A stretch of 64,000 nt of DNA. Origin: Escherichia coli. Its GTDB lineage: Bacteria > Pseudomonadota > Gammaproteobacteria > Enterobacterales > Enterobacteriaceae. Where the stretch lies: assembly GCF_050920415.1 (NCBI RefSeq), contig NZ_CP169309.1; one strand, given 5' to 3'. Both the position numbers and the translations under genes were made by a program. The notes under the pieces are model-generated. The model searched no databases. It was not told the origin of the DNA and saw only the letters and a list, made by a program, of their open reading frames with translations. Every line of letters starts with the position of its first letter. Position 1 is the first letter of the stretch. Shown here in pieces: positions 23,996 to 60,823 of this stretch.

Positions 23996-24571
23996 CTACG
24001 GCAGTGCTGGCCATTCAATATCCTGTGCAGTTGACGTATCAACACGGTTCAGCAACACCCGATACTTTTTCCAGGCTTCCAGCAATGAGGTTTCTTCCTC
24101 CGTTGCGATTTCCAGATCTACAGCATCCTGAAGTGGCGCAATATGCTCACTGGCTACCTGCATCAGGCTGTTTTTTGTTTCTTCCGCCTCTCGGATCCGG
24201 AACAGTTTTTCTGCTTCTGCATCTTTCACCCAGGCTGTGCCGTTCCACTTCTGAAACTCCCCTTCCGGCGATAACCAGGTAACATTTTCCGGTAACGGAC
24301 CGAGTTCAGAAATAAATAACGCGTCCCCTGACGCTACGTCATAAACCGTTTTACCCCGATGGTCTTCAACGAGATGCCACGATGCCTTATCACTGTTGAA
24401 AACAGCCACAAAGCCAGCAGGAATATCTGGTGGTGCAATATCGGTACTGTTTGCTGGCAGACCTGTATGAGGCGGAATATATGCGTCACCTTCACCAATA
24501 AATTCATTAGTTCCGGCCAGCAGATTATAAATTTTTATGGTCCGTGGTTGTTCACTCATTCTGAATGCCAT
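23996..24571 (-). CDS. tfa: Tail fibre assembly protein Tfa
   Basis: 191-aa ORF immediately downstream of stf; lambda Tfa-like. Confidence 0.9.
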
Positions 24572-38630: not shown

Positions 38631-39205
38631 CGCTTTATTACCATCCTCAGTTGATGCTGCAGCGCATAGCCCAGCTCTTTCGGAAGACGCTCACGCCGTA
38701 TCCGCTCAATATTCTGTTTAAACGCCGTGGTCAGCGGCACCGCCATCGGGATTTTCACCACATCAATGGGGTAACGGTTTTTCCCGGCCACACGCTGCAT
38801 GACATGCCAGCGGCCATTTTTCAGTTGCTGAATAAACGCGCCGGGAATACGACGGTTTCCCACCACAAGCACGCTGCCGCCACCTTTCAGGGCTGAACGC
38901 TGCCCCTTTTTACGACGCCTGCGTCGGGACAGGACAATCCGCGCGTTACCCAGCTTTATTACGGGCAAATCCCCCCGGTTAACCTTGATTCTGGCCTGCG
39001 GATTTTTGACCGTGGCCCTTTTCAGCCTGGCCCTTTCCTTTACCAGTTTCCGGCGTACCTTTGTCTCACGGGCAACCTGTGACGCCGACTGCGATATCGC
39101 GGATGAAGCAACGCGGTTAATGGCCATTGCGGCAGCACCGGGCACCGCCGTTCTGCTGATACGGCTGAGGTTTTCAACGGCCTGCTCAAGACCTTTTATG
39201 GCCAT
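38627..39205 (-). CDS. Z: Tail completion protein Z
   Basis: 192-aa ORF matching lambda gpZ. Confidence 0.95.
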   Translation of the reverse strand: MAIKGLEQAVENLSRISRTAVPGAAAMAINRVASSAISQSASQVARETKVRRKLVKERARLKRATVKNPQARIKVNRGDLPVIKLGNARIVLSRRRRRKKGQRSALKGGGSVLVVGNRRIPGAFIQQLKNGRWHVMQRVAGKNRYPIDVVKIPMAVPLTTAFKQNIERIRRERLPKELGYALQHQLRMVIKR

Positions 39206-52754: not shown

Positions 52755-52895
52755 TCATACTCCTGCTCCTGTCAGGGTTTTGGCGTAATTCTTCAGTATC
52801 CGGTAATCGGTCAAAACAGAACCAGGAAAACGATATAAGCGCAGGCGCACCCAGCGGCGGCGAAGACGCTCTGCCATATAAGACTCAAACATCAT
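52755..52895 (-). CDS. ylcG: Small protein YlcG (46 aa)
   Basis: Hand-translated: [49 protein letters not shown] overlaps the rusA stop (ATGA). Confidence 0.75.
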
Positions 52896-53254
52896 TCATT
52901 CCCCATTTCGGTGATGGTCAGTTCCAGCCTCCCACCTTTGGTAACAGGCATCTTCACAACGCGGTAATCAACGACCTGAGCATCATCCAGCCAGAAACCT
53001 GCTTTGGTGAGTGCGTCAAAAGCGGCCTTTTGCAGATTATCCAGGTCACGGCGACGGCGATCCGGCATGTGGCACTCAATACGGATTTTCACTGGCATAG
53101 CCAGGCCGATATCCAGCATTGCGTTTTTAATGATTCGGGTGACGTTATCGCGGTATGCCTGCCCTTCTGCGCTGATGTGTGTGCGCCCGCGATTATGGCG
53201 GTAATAGCGGTTATTGCTCGGAGGCCAGGGTAGTGTGATGTGGTAAGTATTCAC
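52892..53254 (-). CDS. rusA: Holliday junction resolvase RusA
   Basis: Matches RusA from the GTG start (.[25 protein letters not shown]...); 120 aa. Confidence 0.9.
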
Positions 53255-53541
53255 GCCTTGATTACCCCCTCTTTCAGCCAGATAACCTGCGTTCTCGCCA
53301 TACCTTCCAGCGCGCATTCTTTTGCGTACTCAGCATCGACAAAATGCGTGCGGCGGTCGATTTCGTCGTGACAGGCAGAACAGGCAATGGTGGCAATAAG
53401 GTCTGGCGGTTTAATACCGGTGCCGCACAATCCAGCCAGCCGGATATGTGCCAGTACAGACGTTTCAGGGTTGCCATTACATACGCCAGTGATTCTTACC
53501 TGGCATTCCCGACCACGCGCTGCTTTTCTCAAATCAGCCAT
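53251..53541 (-). CDS. ybcO: YbcO (DUF1364, putative nuclease)
   Basis: Matches YbcO from [17 protein letters not shown]...; 96 aa; Cys-rich. Confidence 0.85.
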
Positions 53542-53704
53542 GATTCCTCCTTGCTGCCAGTCGCAACCATTTTTTATCAACCAGGCTAGCGGTATATCCG
53601 AGCAGTGTTGGTATTTCGGATGGCTTCAGCTCAGGCTTACGCTTACGACGATTTGGTACTCTGTAGATGTGTCCGTTCATGACACGAATAAGCGGTGTAG
53701 CCAT
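53534..53704 (-). CDS. ninE: NinE
   Basis: Hand-translated 56-aa [59 protein letters not shown]; overlaps ybcN stop and ybcO start. Confidence 0.85.
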   Translation of the reverse strand: MATPLIRVMNGHIYRVPNRRKRKPELKPSEIPTLLGYTASLVDKKWLRLAARRNHG

Positions 53705-55707: not shown

Positions 55708-56123
55708 AGTATCACCTCATCAGGTTAACCATCACCACCAACGACGCCAATCGACTGGTGGTGAACTGTGTAAGGTTGGCGTAACCGGCTACTCAAACCC
55801 GGCGCTTCCGAAGAAGCCCTCACACAGCCCACCATAATTTGGGCATAGCCGTGCTTAGCGCACAAAAAAACCGCTTAACGCGGTATGCGTTGAGTAGTAT
55901 CCCGGGACGCCAATCCCGTGTGCCGATTTTGCGGCAACGCACAGAATATAGCGCCGGATAAATCATGTCGTCAACCCCAGTAAATGGACACCATGATGAT
56001 CACAGCCATAGCTGCTACAACAGTTACAACTACCTCAGGCCAAAACATAACGATTTCCATATCACCTTTAGCCGCCAGACGAATAGAGACTCCCAATTCT
56101 GGCTGTCGAAGTAAAACACCGAA

Positions 56124-56519: not shown

Positions 56520-58022
56520 ATGACTCAAACTCCTCTATTACTTGCAATCATATTTTTATTGGTTGTTCTTGTTCTTTATATAGCTGCAATCAAACGCATC
56601 AAAAAAATACAATTAGAATTAAGTGATAGCAATCAAAAAAATGAAGAATACAAATCTCGCTTTGCAGATTATTTTAATGTAGAAGAAGAATGTAAGAAGC
56701 TTATTGAGAAAACAGAGCAAGAATGCTCCATAATAAAAGAAGAATCCCTAAAAGTAAAAGAAAATGCCAATAATGAACTAACAAACACCATTGAAAAAAT
56801 GGATGGTATCAATAAACAAATCCAAGAGCTAAGAAGAACTTATAAAGAGAAGAAAGAAATATATGATAAACTAGTAAGGCAAATTTCTATTTATTCAGAA
56901 GATGTTGAGCTAGCCGAACTAGGATTTTACGAACCTCATTTTAATTTTGAAGATTCAGAGCAATTTAAAAACAAAATAAAATCCATCAGGGATGAACAGA
57001 AATTAATGCTGCGGGATAAAACCCACTCTGGCGCAGTATATTGTACAACCCAATGGACTGTTGAAGGCTCTCGAGCAGAGGGTAAAAAAATGACAGACAG
57101 AAATATCAGGCTAACTACTAGAGCATTTAATAATGAATGTGATGCTGCAATTAGCAATTGCACGTGGAAAAACATCACTAAAATGGAAGAACGCATCACA
57201 AAGGCATTTGAGGCCATAAATAAACTAAACGAGCAAAATCACATATATATAAACACTAAATACCTCAATAAAAAACTTGAGGAATTGTGGCTTACCCATG
57301 AATATCGTGAGCAAAAACAGAAAGAAAAAGAAGAACAGGCAGAAATAAGGGCACAAATGAGAGAGGAGGAGCGTGCACAACGAGAAATAGAAAAGGCCAT
57401 GCAAGACGCAGAGGCAGAAGAGCGCCGTTATAAAAAAGCAATTGAAGCTGCAAGAAAGGAAATGGAAAAAGTTACTGGTGACATGAAGCAGCGCCTCGAA
57501 AATCGCATTGCCGAACTAGAACAGAGTTTGTCGCAGGCTGAATCAAAGCATCAAAGAGCATTATCCATGGCACAACAAACCAAACAAGGTCATGTTTATA
57601 TTATTTCGAACATAGGTTCTTTTGGGGAGAATGTTTATAAAATAGGCATGACACGACGTCTTGATCCGCAAGACCGTGTAAATGAGCTCGGTGATGCATC
57701 TGTTCCTTTTATTTTTGATGTACATGCCATGATTTATTCGGAGGACGCTCCATCATTAGAAAAAAAACTACATGATGTCTTCGATAAAAAGAGAGTCAAT
57801 CTTGTAAATCGTAGAAAAGAGTTTTTCTATGTTACTCTGGATGAGATCAAAGAAGCTGTTAAAAAACACTCTGATTCAGAAATTGAATTTATTGAGACAG
57901 CAGTCGCAAAAGACTTTAATGAGTCATTGGCTATTCGTAATCATGAAAATAAAAAAAGTGACAACAGCAACTCATCAATTATACCTGAGCGAAAAACCCC
58001 AGAGTTTGCAGATGCAATTTAA
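56520..58022 (+). CDS. Membrane-anchored coiled-coil protein with C-terminal T5orf172 (GIY-YIG-like) domain; DUF4041-like architecture
   Basis: 500-aa ORF, AAGGA 8 nt before the ATG; N-terminal TM helix (LLLAIIFLLVVLVLYIAAI), long K/E/Q-rich coiled-coil, C-terminal block VYIISNIGSFGENVYKIGMTRRLDPQDRVNELGDASVPF...LEKKLHDVFDKKRVN. Opposite strand to all neighbours. Confidence 0.7.
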   Translation: MTQTPLLLAIIFLLVVLVLYIAAIKRIKKIQLELSDSNQKNEEYKSRFADYFNVEEECKKLIEKTEQECSIIKEESLKVKENANNELTNTIEKMDGINKQIQELRRTYKEKKEIYDKLVRQISIYSEDVELAELGFYEPHFNFEDSEQFKNKIKSIRDEQKLMLRDKTHSGAVYCTTQWTVEGSRAEGKKMTDRNIRLTTRAFNNECDAAISNCTWKNITKMEERITKAFEAINKLNEQNHIYINTKYLNKKLEELWLTHEYREQKQKEKEEQAEIRAQMREEERAQREIEKAMQDAEAEERRYKKAIEAARKEMEKVTGDMKQRLENRIAELEQSLSQAESKHQRALSMAQQTKQGHVYIISNIGSFGENVYKIGMTRRLDPQDRVNELGDASVPFIFDVHAMIYSEDAPSLEKKLHDVFDKKRVNLVNRRKEFFYVTLDEIKEAVKKHSDSEIEFIETAVAKDFNESLAIRNHENKKSDNSNSSIIPERKTPEFADAI

Positions 58023-58270: not shown

Positions 58271-58573
58271 TCACAGCAAGTTTAAGTTCATATCTCCATA
58301 CACTGCCAACACTCGTTTCATCGCGGCACTCTGGCGACACTCCTTGAAAATCAGATTCGTGCTCACCTTTCCTTCCCGTTCTTCCCTGGTAGCGAACCGG
58401 TAATACACCGTTCGCCAGACCTTACCATCAACGACCAAGATTCCTGCCCGTGCCATTTTAGCCGCAGCCTGATTTATACTGGTTACTGTTGCGCCTGTTA
58501 CCGCAGCAACGTCCTGCGCACAGAAGCTCTTATGCGTCCCCAGGTAATGAATAATTGCCTCTTTGCCCGTCAT
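58271..58573 (-). CDS. ren: Ren
   Basis: 100-aa ORF matching lambda Ren (MTGKEAIIHYLGTH.SFCA.DVAA.TGATVTSINQAAAKMARAG...). Confidence 0.9.
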   Translation of the reverse strand: MTGKEAIIHYLGTHKSFCAQDVAAVTGATVTSINQAAAKMARAGILVVDGKVWRTVYYRFATREEREGKVSTNLIFKECRQSAAMKRVLAVYGDMNLNLL

Positions 58574-59271
58574 ACAGTTGCTCCTTTCAGTCCGAACTTC
58601 GCTTTGATTTCTGCGATCTTCGCCAGAGCCTGTGCACGATTTAGAGGTCTACCGCCCATGACAGGAAGTTGTTTTACTGGTTCAGGTATCGCCTCACCAC
58701 GGTTAATTCGCGCGGTCATACAAGTCAGTTCATCGGCAGCCTTGCGCCGTAATTCCGCATCAGTAAGCGCATTGGCCCGCATGTTCTGATACAGGTTGGT
58801 AACCAGCCAGTAGTGCGCGTTTGATTTCCACGGATAAGACTCTGCATCTGGATACAGGCCACGTTTCCGGCAATACTCGTAAACCATATCAACCAGCTCG
58901 CTGGCGTTTGGCAGCCCGGCGGTAACGGATGCTTCTTCCCGGCACCAGGCAACAAACTGCCCGGGTGATGGCAGGAATGGTCGATTCTGCCGACGGGCTA
59001 CGCGCATTCCTGCGTCAACCTGTTCCATCGTGGTGATCCCGTTTTCCCGGAAAGCCAGAACCCACTGGCGGCGGATTTCGTTCAGTTCGTTCTGGTCCCG
59101 GTTAGCCAGGCTCGCCGGGAAAGTTGCCAGTAACTGGCTGAACACACCATTGATGATCTGCGCTACCTGTTGTACCTGCGGCTTTTCGTCGTACTGTTCC
59201 GGCATGTTGTTGGCGATCCGGCGCATCTGCTCACGGTCAAAGTTAACCATCTGTGCGGCGATGTTTTTCAT
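58570..59271 (-). CDS. P: Replication protein P (helicase loader)
   Basis: 233-aa ORF near-identical to lambda P (MKNIAAQMVNFDREQMRRIANNMPEQYDEKPQVQQ...). Confidence 0.96.
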   Translation of the reverse strand: MKNIAAQMVNFDREQMRRIANNMPEQYDEKPQVQQVAQIINGVFSQLLATFPASLANRDQNELNEIRRQWVLAFRENGITTMEQVDAGMRVARRQNRPFLPSPGQFVAWCREEASVTAGLPNASELVDMVYEYCRKRGLYPDAESYPWKSNAHYWLVTNLYQNMRANALTDAELRRKAADELTCMTARINRGEAIPEPVKQLPVMGGRPLNRAQALAKIAEIKAKFGLKGATV

Positions 59272-60197
59272 AAATCCACCCCGTAAATCCAGTCAGTGTT
59301 TGTCAGGTCGAGTTTTGATTTTCCGGCTATCACGCCAGCCTGTTGCTTGTTACGGTTGATTTCGAGTTGGGTCCACTTGTCGCGGAGTTTGGCCGGACTT
59401 AGCACGTTACCGGACCAGAAGTTGTCCTGGCATGCCCAGCGGAACAGCACGCACATGTCGCGGTGGTTACGGCCGTCACGTTCACGCATCAGGCGGATAT
59501 CGTTAGCCCACCCTGCAAAATTCGGTTTTCTGGCTGATGGCGCGATGGTCTTCACCATGTCAAACATCCACTCTGCGGCGGTCAGGTCTTCTGCTGTCCC
59601 CCACCTGCTGCCGCTCTGAATTGCAGCATCTGGTTTCTCCACAGGAAGATCGTTTTCTGGTTGGTCAGAGGATTCGCCAGAATTCTCGGACGAAAAAGGT
59701 TTTATATTGTCTTTTGTTAGTTTGTCTTTTGTGTTTACCTGATTCGGGTAAGTGCCTTTACCTGATTTGGGTAAACTTTTCTTACCTGATTCAGGTAAAT
59801 TTACCTCTTTCAGGTAAACTTTATTTTTCTTACCTGATTCGGGTAATGTTGACCATTCACTGACCACATTATTAATGCCGATATTCCGCCCGCTCTGAAT
59901 AAAAATCCCACGCTTTACCAGAACACTTTTTGCAGCAGAACACTTGTGCGGCAATATCCCGGTCAACTCGGAAAGTTGCTCGTTGCTCACCCAATCCAGT
60001 TTTTTATTAAAGCCATATGTTTTGCGCATGACAGCCAGGAAGACCAGAAGCTGGTGCTGTGTTAATCCGGCCAGCATCACAGCTTCCAGCAACTCATTTG
60101 CAATGCGCGTATAACCATCATCGAGATCTGCCACGCGCGGCTCCTTTTGTGCCGCATCCGGCACTGGAAAATTGAATATCTCAGCAGTGTTTGCCAT
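59268..60197 (-). CDS. O: Replication initiator O (different iteron specificity from lambda)
   Basis: Start chosen at MANTAEIFNF (GGAGG 5 nt upstream); N-terminal domain lambda O-like (VADLDDGY...LRKTYG.NK), C-terminus P-interacting; iterons inside. Confidence 0.9.
   Translation of the reverse strand: MANTAEIFNFPVPDAAQKEPRVADLDDGYTRIANELLEAVMLAGLTQHQLLVFLAVMRKTYGFNKKLDWVSNEQLSELTGILPHKCSAAKSVLVKRGIFIQSGRNIGINNVVSEWSTLPESGKKNKVYLKEVNLPESGKKSLPKSGKGTYPNQVNTKDKLTKDNIKPFSSENSGESSDQPENDLPVEKPDAAIQSGSRWGTAEDLTAAEWMFDMVKTIAPSARKPNFAGWANDIRLMRERDGRNHRDMCVLFRWACQDNFWSGNVLSPAKLRDKWTQLEINRNKQQAGVIAGKSKLDLTNTDWIYGVDL
59736..59846. repeat. Replication origin iterons: 4 copies of TACCTGATTCGGGTAA spaced 23-24 bp, plus one degenerate copy
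   Basis: Copies at 59736, 59759, 59783 and 59831 with a degenerate copy near 59802; each has internal dyad symmetry; AT-rich block follows; inside the O gene as in ori-lambda. Confidence 0.85.
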
Positions 60198-60283
60198 AAT
60201 TCCTCCCGCAATGAGTGTGTTACGATTTGCACCTGAAAGTCGGTTCTGTTCCCGCAGACCGACTTTCGCCATTTCTGAACCTG

Positions 60284-60823
60284 TCATATTGCCCCCAGCA
60301 TGGTGGTCACCATCGCCATTAATGGACCAGCCAGATCCGGGTCCACACGAAACATCGACACAATACCTTCACTCATTTCCTTCAGTTTCTGGTGGCGTGG
60401 TGCGTTGAGAATGACAGCCTGTTTTGCCTCACTGAGTTCCTTTTCCATTTCAGCCAACCGAGTCATGAAGCTATCCTGCTCAACCAGGTAACCGCGATAT
60501 TCCAGCGGTAGTACCGCCAGAATTGCCGGGGTCAGTTCACGCACGTTATTTCGGTATTTTTCAGAATCGAATTTGTTATCGAGGAAGCGGAACAGCTTCT
60601 GGCGTGCACGGCTGACATCATCAGGGAAATCGATGGTGCCGTCGCCCTGCTCCCGATACTCATTCACAATGAGTGCGGCAACGACATCCTGATTATCTAC
60701 AGCCGACCAGGCGCGGACGGCATCACGGATTTTTTCGTGGCCTGGAGCTTGTTTTGTTTGAGAACGATTTATCACCGCAGTCGGAATAAATCCGCTAGTC
60801 TGTTGGTATGTAAGTGGTTGCAT
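60284..60823 (-). CDS. YdaT-like protein in the cII position
   Basis: 179-aa ORF downstream of cro-like gene; segment LTPAILAVLPLEYRGYL resembles the Rac YdaT motif IPAILAILPRELR (recalled from memory). Confidence 0.5.
   Translation of the reverse strand: MQPLTYQQTSGFIPTAVINRSQTKQAPGHEKIRDAVRAWSAVDNQDVVAALIVNEYREQGDGTIDFPDDVSRARQKLFRFLDNKFDSEKYRNNVRELTPAILAVLPLEYRGYLVEQDSFMTRLAEMEKELSEAKQAVILNAPRHQKLKEMSEGIVSMFRVDPDLAGPLMAMVTTMLGAI

What the first reader, a model, noticed from the sequence alone, without database searches (positions are those of the whole stretch)
59736..59846. Replication-origin iterons with different specificity from lambda inside O
Four 16-bp repeats TACCTGATTCGGGTAA, each internally palindromic, plus one degenerate copy, spaced 23-24 bp and followed by an AT-rich stretch. 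The O N-terminal domain diverges from lambda O, consistent with co-evolved iteron recognition.
Basis: seen in the sequence. Interest (0 to 1): 0.3.

Follow-up and report, generated by a model that had tools for sequence, protein, structure and literature searches.

The report
Non-lambda iteron origin in prophage gene O
This is the replication origin of a lambda-like prophage: five palindromic binding sites for the phage's own initiator, inside the initiator gene, with a different sequence from lambda's. It is an ordinary, very common variant of a textbook arrangement.

Summary
The repeats are real. Five 17-bp dyad-symmetric copies of TTACC-N7-GGTAA lie at 59735-59846, and the motif occurs nowhere else in the 64-kb window (0.17 matches expected by chance). 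They sit in the linker of a lambda-O-type gene on the minus strand, exactly where lambda, P22 and phi80 carry their iterons. On the gene strand they are followed by a 45-nt, 27% GC, A-rich tract and a lambda-like inverted repeat.

Spacing is 29/19/24/23 bp, not a uniform 23-24. The last four sites match lambda's 20/24/23.

The O protein is mosaic. Its N-terminal domain, a predicted winged helix, is 47% identical to lambda's. Its C-terminal domain and the neighbouring P protein are about 97% identical.

Across ten O-protein classes, iteron sequence changes together with the predicted recognition helix. Against a Klebsiella relative, the half-sites are conserved (1/50 changes) while the spacers diverge (11/27).

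The element belongs to a full-length DLP12-type prophage that is 99% identical to the isolated phage PhiR26_1. This iteron class occurs in 44% of complete E. coli genomes, against 24% for lambda's.

It is a new or undescribed member of a well-known kind, possibly the classical phage-82 type. Interest is low.

The parts
59268..60197 (-). Gene O, the replication initiator (309 aa from the lambda-equivalent start). Public annotation extends it to 60287 (339 aa).
   Evidence: Pfam Phage_rep_O E 7.5e-34. 66% identical to lambda O overall, aligned from M1. SD GGAGG lies 4 nt upstream of the ATG at 60197.
59850..60197 (-). Coding region of the O N-terminal origin-binding domain (residues 1-116). Predicted winged helix with the recognition helix at residues 83-95.
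   Evidence: AF2 model, pLDDT 76: H47-60, H72-79, H83-95, hairpin 99-108. Weak fold matches, all to winged-helix proteins. 47% identical to lambda, 65% to P22 gp18, 82% to Klebsiella GZ7.
59830..59846 (-). Iteron 1 (distal, extra relative to lambda): TTACCCGAATCAGGTAA
   Evidence: It aligns as an insertion relative to lambda.
59801..59817 (-). Iteron 2: TTACCTGAAAGAGGTAA (degenerate centre, intact half-sites)
59782..59798 (-). Iteron 3: TTACCTGAATCAGGTAA (perfect palindrome)
59758..59774 (-). Iteron 4: TTACCCAAATCAGGTAA
59735..59751 (-). Iteron 5 (next to the AT-rich tract): TTACCCGAATCAGGTAA
59691..59734 (-). AT-rich, strand-asymmetric tract (27% GC, 53% A on the gene strand). It begins ACACAAAAGAC and holds two CAAAAGACAA repeats. 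Presumed unwinding element.
   Evidence: About 77% identical to lambda's AT-rich region. ACACAAAAGA follows the last iteron in 9 of 10 O classes.
59665..59690 (-). Imperfect inverted repeat TCCGAGAATTCTGGCGAATCCTCTGA, homologous to the one on the right side of ori-lambda. From about here the sequence is at least 90% identical to lambda.
59268..59690 (-). Coding region of the O C-terminal domain (P-interacting in lambda), about 97% identical to lambda.
58570..59271 (-). Gene P (DnaB helicase loader), 97% identical to lambda P.
60172..60267 (+). pO/oop-like unit antisense to the upstream gene. The promoter-like site TTGAAT-17-CATAAT overlaps the O start codon, and a hairpin lies at 60235-60267.

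Best explanation
This is the theta-replication origin of a lambdoid, DLP12-family prophage.

Proposed mechanism:
1. Dimers of the phage's own O protein bind the five dyad-symmetric 17-bp iterons (TTACC-N7-GGTAA) through the N-terminal winged-helix domain.
2. The resulting nucleoprotein complex (an 'O-some') destabilises the adjacent A-rich tract at 59691-59734 on supercoiled DNA.
3. The lambda-like C-terminal domain of O recruits the P-DnaB complex to load the host helicase.

The iterons and the N-domain form one specificity module that differs from lambda's. The C-domain, P, and the right-hand ori elements are lambda's. The prediction is that lambda O cannot fire this origin and this O cannot fire ori-lambda.

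Shown here: the anatomy, the homology, DNA-level conservation of the half-sites, and covariation of the iterons with the recognition helix.
Inferred from lambda biochemistry: binding, unwinding, helicase loading and type specificity.
For: 1. The five sites are unique in the window and far above chance.
2. They occupy the same place in gene O as the annotated lambda iterons, the P22 rep_origin and the phi80 gp15 sites. The spacing of the four proximal sites, 19/24/23, mirrors the 20/24/23 of lambda, P22, phage 2851, mEp043 and a Yersinia phage.
3. They are DNA-level repeats, not peptide repeats. The same 17-mer is read in two frames, giving LPESGK in one and YLKEVN / YPNQVN in the other.
4. Against Klebsiella phage GZ7 (same array, N-domain 82% identical) the substitutions are half-sites 1/50, centres 6/35 and spacers 11/27. 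Fisher's test for half-sites against spacers gives p = 1.8e-5.
5. Ten O classes show a distinct iteron for each N-domain class. Residues 82-88, which span the start of the predicted recognition helix, covary with the half-site: PHKCS / PTKCS with TTACC; HTHCS / HTHVC with TTAGC; RQNVN / RQKVN with TGTC(T/A)C; VKRCN with TCCCTC; DTHVS with TTCCCG.
6. The AT-rich tract and the inverted repeat are homologous to lambda's. The O C-domain and P are about 97% identical to lambda's.
7. The O gene and iterons are 100% identical to those of phage PhiR26_1. Its record gives MG1655 as host, and it is 99.2% identical to the window over 24.9 kb.
8. Published work on lambda and Stx-phage O binding to iterons (PMC7466680), on the parts of ori-lambda (PMC3349717) and on type-specific iterons in the O / gp18 family (PMC8022706) establishes the mechanism for the family.
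Against: - No binding, footprint or origin-mapping data exist for this iteron class. None of the 21 phage records that carry it annotates an origin.
- Iteron 2 has a degenerate centre, so it may bind weakly.
- The role of the extra distal iteron, 29 bp from the next one, is unknown.
- The winged-helix assignment rests on a medium-confidence model (pLDDT 76) and weak fold matches (E about 0.01-0.05). No solved relative exists.
- The recognition-helix covariation comes from only ten sequences in about six classes.
Confidence: 0.9

Rival explanations
1. The repeats only reflect a repeated peptide motif (LPESGK) in the flexible linker of O and have no function as DNA sites.
For: Three copies encode LPESGK or LPKSGK. 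The linker region is poorly conserved between O classes.
Against: Two copies are read in another frame and encode unrelated peptides (YLKEVN, YPNQVN) while keeping the DNA motif. Each copy is dyad-symmetric. Half-sites are conserved and spacers are not against GZ7. Unrelated iteron sequences keep the same spacing in other classes.
Confidence: 0.02
2. The sites are real iterons but the origin is an inactive relic, because the prophage is a defective DLP12-type element.
For: The prophage sits at the DLP12 site by argU. In strain Z0117EC0116 the portal gene is interrupted. The K-12 DLP12 is defective (background knowledge, not tested here).
Against: The O/ori sequence is 100% identical to phage PhiR26_1, and the window is 99.2% identical to it over 24.9 kb. 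Phage-record hosts are MG1655 and E. coli C. All O, P and ori parts are intact. 68 of 80 viral contigs carry the identical array.
Confidence: 0.05
3. The palindromes are operators for another regulator (repressor, Cro-like, YdaS/YdaT, or a host factor) and not for O.
For: 17-bp palindromes are typical of dimeric HTH regulators. The immunity region here is of the non-lambda YdaS/YdaT type.
Against: No copy of the motif lies in the cI-cro intergenic region or anywhere else in the window. The array travels with the O N-domain into Klebsiella phages that have a different cII and a different helicase loader. The motif covaries with the O recognition helix.
Confidence: 0.02

Closest known systems
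ori-lambda (four 18-bp iterons ITN1-4, a 38-bp AT-rich region and an inverted repeat, inside gene O; lambda 39034-39160)
   Same: Same gene family, same position in the O linker, and dyad-symmetric iterons. The proximal spacing is 19/24/23 against lambda's 20/24/23. The AT-rich tract is homologous (about 77% identical) and so is the inverted repeat. The O C-domain and P are about 97% identical. A pO/oop-like unit sits at the O start.
   Different: The iteron sequence is unrelated (TTACC-N7-GGTAA against TCCCTC-N6-GAGGGA). There are five iterons rather than four, the extra one lying 29 bp upstream. The O N-domain is only 47% identical. The upstream gene is YdaT-type instead of cII.
Salmonella phage P22 origin in gene 18
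   Same: The nearest classical relative of the N-domain (65% identical). It shares the TTACC / GGTAA half-sites and the ACACAAAAGAC start of the AT-rich tract.
   Different: P22 has four iterons with a 5-bp centre (TTTACC-AGATC-GGTAAA) rather than 7 bp. Its C-domain and right-hand ori element (a G/C-rich palindrome) are different. Its partner is a DnaB-type helicase (gp12), not P.
Origins of Klebsiella phage GZ7 and five related Klebsiella phages
   Same: The same iteron class and an identical 29/19/24/23 five-site array. The N-domain is 82% identical.
   Different: The C-terminal domain is different and the partner is a DnaC/DnaI-type helicase loader. The element to the right of the AT tract is different. 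The host genus is different.
Stx-phage origins (933W, P27) with six lambda-type iterons
   Same: They also carry extra distal iterons upstream of the four core sites, inside a lengthened O gene. In P27 the extra sites are weakly bound but required (PMC7466680).
   Different: Those iterons are of lambda specificity. Here only one extra site is present, and it belongs to a different class.
Phage 82 origin (sequenced in 1979-81). This is a lead from memory, not a test.
   Same: The prophage's nin/rusA region is 95.7% identical to phage 82 record X92588, so the prophage is 82-like. From memory, phage 82 has non-lambda ori repeats, possibly five.
   Different: The phage 82 ori sequence could not be compared. 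It is not in the collections searched, and the original papers are outside the searchable library.

Membership tests
Lambda-O-type initiator with an intragenic iteron origin (lambdoid ori) | The initiator carries the Phage_rep_O N-terminal domain. | tested here: met
   Pfam PF04492, E 7.5e-34, 116.6 bits against a cut-off of 28.7, residues 21-115.
Lambda-O-type initiator with an intragenic iteron origin (lambdoid ori) | An array of at least three dyad-symmetric repeats of about 17-20 bp inside the initiator gene, directly after the N-domain coding part. | tested here: met
   Five sites at 59735-59846, beginning 4 nt after codon 116 (the SEW motif that ends the N-domain alignment).
Lambda-O-type initiator with an intragenic iteron origin (lambdoid ori) | An AT-rich, strand-asymmetric tract directly downstream of the last iteron. 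| tested here: met
   59691-59734, 27% GC, 53% A on the gene strand, homologous to lambda's tract.
Lambda-O-type initiator with an intragenic iteron origin (lambdoid ori) | The iteron sequence is matched to the N-domain (type specificity). | tested here: met
   Comparative only. Ten classes were compared: the same iteron occurs with an 82%-identical N-domain, and different iterons occur at 65% identity or less. The predicted recognition helix covaries with the half-site.
Lambda-O-type initiator with an intragenic iteron origin (lambdoid ori) | The C-terminal domain is coupled to a helicase-loading partner encoded immediately downstream. | tested here: met
   The C-domain is about 97% identical to lambda O, and the adjacent P is 97% identical to lambda P.
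Lambda-O-type initiator with an intragenic iteron origin (lambdoid ori) | O binds the iterons and replication starts there. | not testable with these tools
   This needs EMSA or footprinting, an ori plasmid, or 2D-gel mapping.
Lambda replication-specificity type (rep-lambda) | Iterons of consensus ATCCCTCAAAACGAGGGA, recognised by lambda O. | tested here: not met
   The iterons are TTACC-N7-GGTAA. There is no megablast-level similarity to lambda in the N-domain or iteron part: matches to 933W and other O genes with lambda-type iterons start only at query position 541-554. The N-domain is 47% identical.
Phage 82 replication-specificity type | Iteron sequence identical to the published phage 82 ori. 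| not tested
Only the nin region of phage 82 (X92588) could be compared, at 95.7% identity.

The most novel reading that the evidence does not exclude
TTACC-N7-GGTAA x5 is a replication-specificity class that has not been described, and it is the commonest O-type origin in E. coli (44% of complete genomes against 24% for lambda's class).

Its half-site is shared with P22, but the centre is 2 bp longer, and one extra distal iteron is obligatory.

Together with the pattern seen between residues 82-88 of O and the half-site, this would give a readable recognition code. Such a code could predict, or re-engineer, cross-reactivity and replication interference between co-resident lambdoid prophages.
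Probability: 0.35. Interest if true: 0.3.

Novelty: new member of a known kind. Interest (0 to 1): 0.15.

Why it matters
The principle has been textbook knowledge since about 1980: origin iterons inside gene O, matched to a swappable N-terminal domain. This adds no new kind of system.

Its practical value is in annotation and prediction:
- This class is present in about 44% of complete E. coli genomes, yet no record seen here annotates it as an origin.
- The half-site and recognition-helix table could help predict which co-resident prophages share, compete for, or interfere with each other's initiators.
- It marks a recombination joint inside O that shuffles origin specificity independently of the helicase-loading module.

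Tried and rejected
- Full-text search for the iteron sequence on both strands, plus sub-strings, found nothing. A search for 'phage 82' together with 'iterons' found only the phage L paper. Prior description of this class could therefore be neither confirmed nor excluded.
- Looking for phage 82's O in the 90% protein cluster: 15 of 7825 members were listed and none was named phage 82. Inconclusive.
- A sequence search of solved structures with O gave no hit. Foldseek of the AF2 N-domain model gave only weak matches (E 0.01-0.05). All were winged-helix proteins, so this supports the fold class only.
- The IMG/VR scan with the N-domain returned only relatives 98-100% identical. That was useful for copy-number variation but not for covariation. 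The divergent classes were taken from GenBank phage records instead.
- A search for the PhiR phage names found one preprint that names ΦR47.1 and three sibling ΦR phages as phages a defence system protects against. No paper describing PhiR26_1 itself was found.
Its record annotates lambda-type iterons, and its N-domain has the same 47% identity as lambda's.

Full report
OBSERVATION

The + strand of 59730-59846 holds five copies of a 17-bp motif. Read on the minus strand, which is the strand of the gene that contains them, they are:
- IT1, 59846-59830: TTACCCGAATCAGGTAA
- IT2, 59817-59801: TTACCTGAAAGAGGTAA
- IT3, 59798-59782: TTACCTGAATCAGGTAA
- IT4, 59774-59758: TTACCCAAATCAGGTAA
- IT5, 59751-59735: TTACCCGAATCAGGTAA

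All ten 5-bp half-sites (TTACC / GGTAA) are intact. The 8-bp arms match in 6 to 8 of 8 positions, and IT3 is a perfect palindrome. With up to three mismatches the motif occurs only at these five sites in the 64-kb window. That is 8 strand-matches against 0.17 expected, and none of 100 shuffles reached 8.

Only two copies are exactly the quoted 16-mer. Spacing on the gene strand is 29, 19, 24, 23 bp rather than a uniform 23-24. The AT-rich tract (59691-59734, 27% GC against 50% for the window) precedes the repeats on the + strand and follows them only on the gene strand.

CONTEXT

The repeats lie in an ORF on the minus strand (59268-60287). It carries a Pfam Phage_rep_O domain (E 7.5e-34). Downstream on that strand are a Phage_lambda_P gene (58570-59271) and ren. 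Upstream are YdaT-type and YdaS/Cro-type genes and a divergent S24-peptidase repressor.

The protein aligns with lambda O from the ATG at 60197, giving 309 aa with a GGAGG Shine-Dalgarno sequence 4 nt upstream.

The gene is mosaic against lambda. Over the N-domain and iterons, DNA identity in 30-nt windows mostly lies between 30% and 70%. It rises to about 77% over the AT-rich tract and to 90% or more from about 59700 to the stop codon. At the protein level the N-domain is 47% identical and the C-domain about 97%. P is 97% identical to lambda P.

The global alignment treats IT1 and its spacer as an insertion and lines up IT2-IT5 with lambda ITN1-4.

After the AT tract comes TCCGAGAATTCTGGCGAATCCTCTGA (59690-59665). 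This is the homologue of the inverted repeat on the right side of ori-lambda.

THE ELEMENT THAT CARRIES IT

In an E. coli chromosome with a 100%-identical O gene, the prophage sits next to tRNA-Arg (argU), fimZ and the sfm genes. Its genes are named intD, quuD, essD, rrrD and nohD. It is therefore a full-length relative of DLP12.

Window 36000-60900 is 99.2% identical over its whole length to phage PhiR26_1. The host in that record is MG1655, and its O gene is 100% identical. Sibling ΦR phages are named in a preprint as phages against which a defence system gives some protection. So the origin belongs to a phage type that has been isolated and sequenced as a phage, not only to relics.

The nin/rusA region is 95.7% identical to the phage 82 record X92588.

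IS IT A DNA ELEMENT OR A PEPTIDE REPEAT?

Because the spacings are not multiples of three, the same 17-mer is read in two frames. IT1, IT3 and IT4 encode LPESGK or LPKSGK. IT2 and IT5 encode YLKEVN and YPNQVN. A peptide repeat cannot explain that, nor the dyad symmetry.

Klebsiella phage GZ7 has an N-domain 82% identical and the same array with the same 29/19/24/23 spacing. Substitutions against GZ7 are 1/50 in half-sites, 6/35 in iteron centres and 11/27 in spacers. Fisher's test for half-sites against spacers gives p = 1.8e-5. Selection therefore acts on the DNA half-sites.

COMPARATIVE ANATOMY

Ten O genes were compared. The percentage is N-domain identity to the window's O.
- Window: TTACC-N7-GGTAA, five sites, spacing 29/19/24/23.
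- Klebsiella GZ7, 82%: the same motif and array.
- P22 gp18, 65%: TTTACC-AGATC-GGTAAA, four sites, 20/24/23.
- SEN34, 61%: TTAGC-N7-GCTAA. Three copies were detected (24/23), and a fourth degenerate copy is visible upstream.
- Yersinia 06.16-1, 60%, and phage 2851, 49.5%: TTAGCCAAGTCGGCTAA, four sites, 20/24/23.
- Proteus Pm34, 50%: TGTCTCTAACTTAGAGACA, three copies detected, 24/24.
- Lambda, 47%: ATCCCTCAAAACGAGGGA, four sites, 20/24/23.
- phi80, 40%: TTCCCGAAAACGGGAA, four sites. The record annotates them as gp15 binding sites, and their annotated starts are 20-21 bp apart.
- mEp043, 39%: TGTCACCAAAACGGTGACA, four sites, 20/24/23.

In every case the array starts right after the (S/E)-x-W motif that ends the N-domain. 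In nine of ten it is followed directly by ACACAAAAGA and an A-rich tract.

The sequence beyond that tract tracks the helicase partner, not the iterons. O genes whose record names the downstream gene as replication protein P or lambda-P-like (window, lambda, SEN34, Pm34, phi80) share TCGTCCGAGAATTCTG(G/A)CGAATCCTCTGAC, with small variations. O genes paired with DnaB- or DnaC-type partners (P22, 2851, Yersinia, GZ7) have G/C-rich elements there.

The origin is thus built from two independently assorting modules joined in or near the AT-rich tract.

SPECIFICITY DETERMINANT

An AlphaFold2 model of residues 1-125 (pLDDT 76) predicts a winged helix: helices at 47-60, 72-79 and 83-95 and a hairpin at 99-108. 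Foldseek matches are weak (E 0.01-0.05), but all are to winged-helix proteins, mostly DNA-binding regulators such as CRP, MarR/RovA, IclR and LysR. No solved relative exists by sequence.

In the ten-sequence alignment, residues 82-88, which lead into the third helix, sort exactly with the half-site class:
- LPHKCS / APTKCS with TTACC
- HHTHCS / HHTHVC with TTAGC
- SRQNVN / PRQKVN with TGTC(T/A)C
- PVKRCN with TCCCTC
- SDTHVS with TTCCCG

This is the pattern expected if that helix reads the half-site. It rests on few sequences and is an inference.

DISTRIBUTION

The iteron region (176 nt) is found at 80% coverage or more in 2388 of 5426 complete E. coli genomes, up to three copies per genome. 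The equivalent lambda segment is found in 1317.

Among 50,697 phage records only 21 carry this class: 15 E. coli and 6 Klebsiella phages. None annotates an origin there.

Of 80 IMG/VR contigs with a 98-100% identical N-domain, 68 have the identical five-site array. A few have single-base variants. One has seven sites, through duplication of the 43-bp IT2-IT3 unit.

MECHANISM

By homology with lambda, O dimers bind the iterons, bend the DNA and assemble into an O-some. The adjacent AT-rich tract unwinds on supercoiled DNA. The O C-domain recruits P-DnaB (PMC7466680, PMC3349717).

Type specificity of iterons within this protein family is stated in PMC8022706.

The extra distal iteron resembles the additional, weakly bound but required iterons of Stx phages (PMC7466680). 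Whether it is needed here is unknown.

None of these steps has been tested for this class.

NOVELTY AND VERDICT

The kind is textbook. This particular iteron class was not found in the searchable literature and is not annotated in any record seen.

The prophage is phage-82-like in its nin region. From memory, phage 82's origin was sequenced around 1980 with non-lambda repeats. It could be this same class, which I could not test.

I file it as a new, or at least undocumented, member of a known kind, with low interest.

Noticed in passing
window 60172-60287 (+ strand): A pO/oop-like antisense unit. The promoter-like site TTGAAT-17-CATAAT (with an upstream TG) has its -10 over the lambda-equivalent O start codon, and it is conserved with lambda pO and the phi80 M3-RNA promoter. 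A 14-pair hairpin (10 perfect outer pairs) follows at 60235-60267 (-24.6 kcal/mol, z -2.9), but its T tail is weak. This suggests that the annotated 339-aa O (start 60287, overlapping ydaT) is about 30 codons too long.
   Followed up: partly
window 56520-58022 (+): A 500-aa DUF4041 protein encoded on the opposite strand between ren and the nin region. In the PhiR26_1 record it is annotated as the anti-phage defence gene PD-lambda-1.
   Followed up: no
window 55754-55839 (-) and 55864-55936 (-): Rfam matches above gathering score to C4 antisense RNA (74.8 bits) and the isrK Hfq-binding sRNA (58.7 bits), side by side in the early-right region of the prophage. In related records this region encodes a Rha / P22AR C-terminal-domain protein.
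   Followed up: no
window 24030-24228 (-): Rfam match to IS009 (226.7 bits, full length), close to the end of the prophage that faces the ompT/nfrA side.
   Followed up: no
window about 21000-64000, with host flank 1-21000: The prophage is a full-length relative of the defective K-12 prophage DLP12 (argU site). ORF sizes and order suggest that the flanking host genes in the window are the cus / nfr / ompT side; these ORFs were not searched. Its nin/rusA region (about 52765-53700) is 95.7% identical to phage 82 record X92588.
   Followed up: partly
one of the IMG/VR loci L007-L086 (relatives): One viral contig carries seven iterons instead of five, through tandem duplication of the 43-bp IT2-IT3 unit. 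This shows that iteron number changes by unequal exchange within the array.
   Followed up: partly
L003 (Escherichia phage D2, OM475427) 301-1322: This O gene matches the window's O at both ends but carries lambda-type iterons in the middle, and it is annotated as two CDS. It looks like a recombinant, or a disrupted O, with the exchange near the N-domain / iteron module.
   Followed up: partly
L004 (Klebsiella phage GZ7) 1201-2766: The same N-domain and five-iteron module is joined to a different O C-terminus and a DnaC/DnaI-type helicase loader. This shows exchange of the origin-specificity module across genera and across helicase-loading systems.
   Followed up: partly
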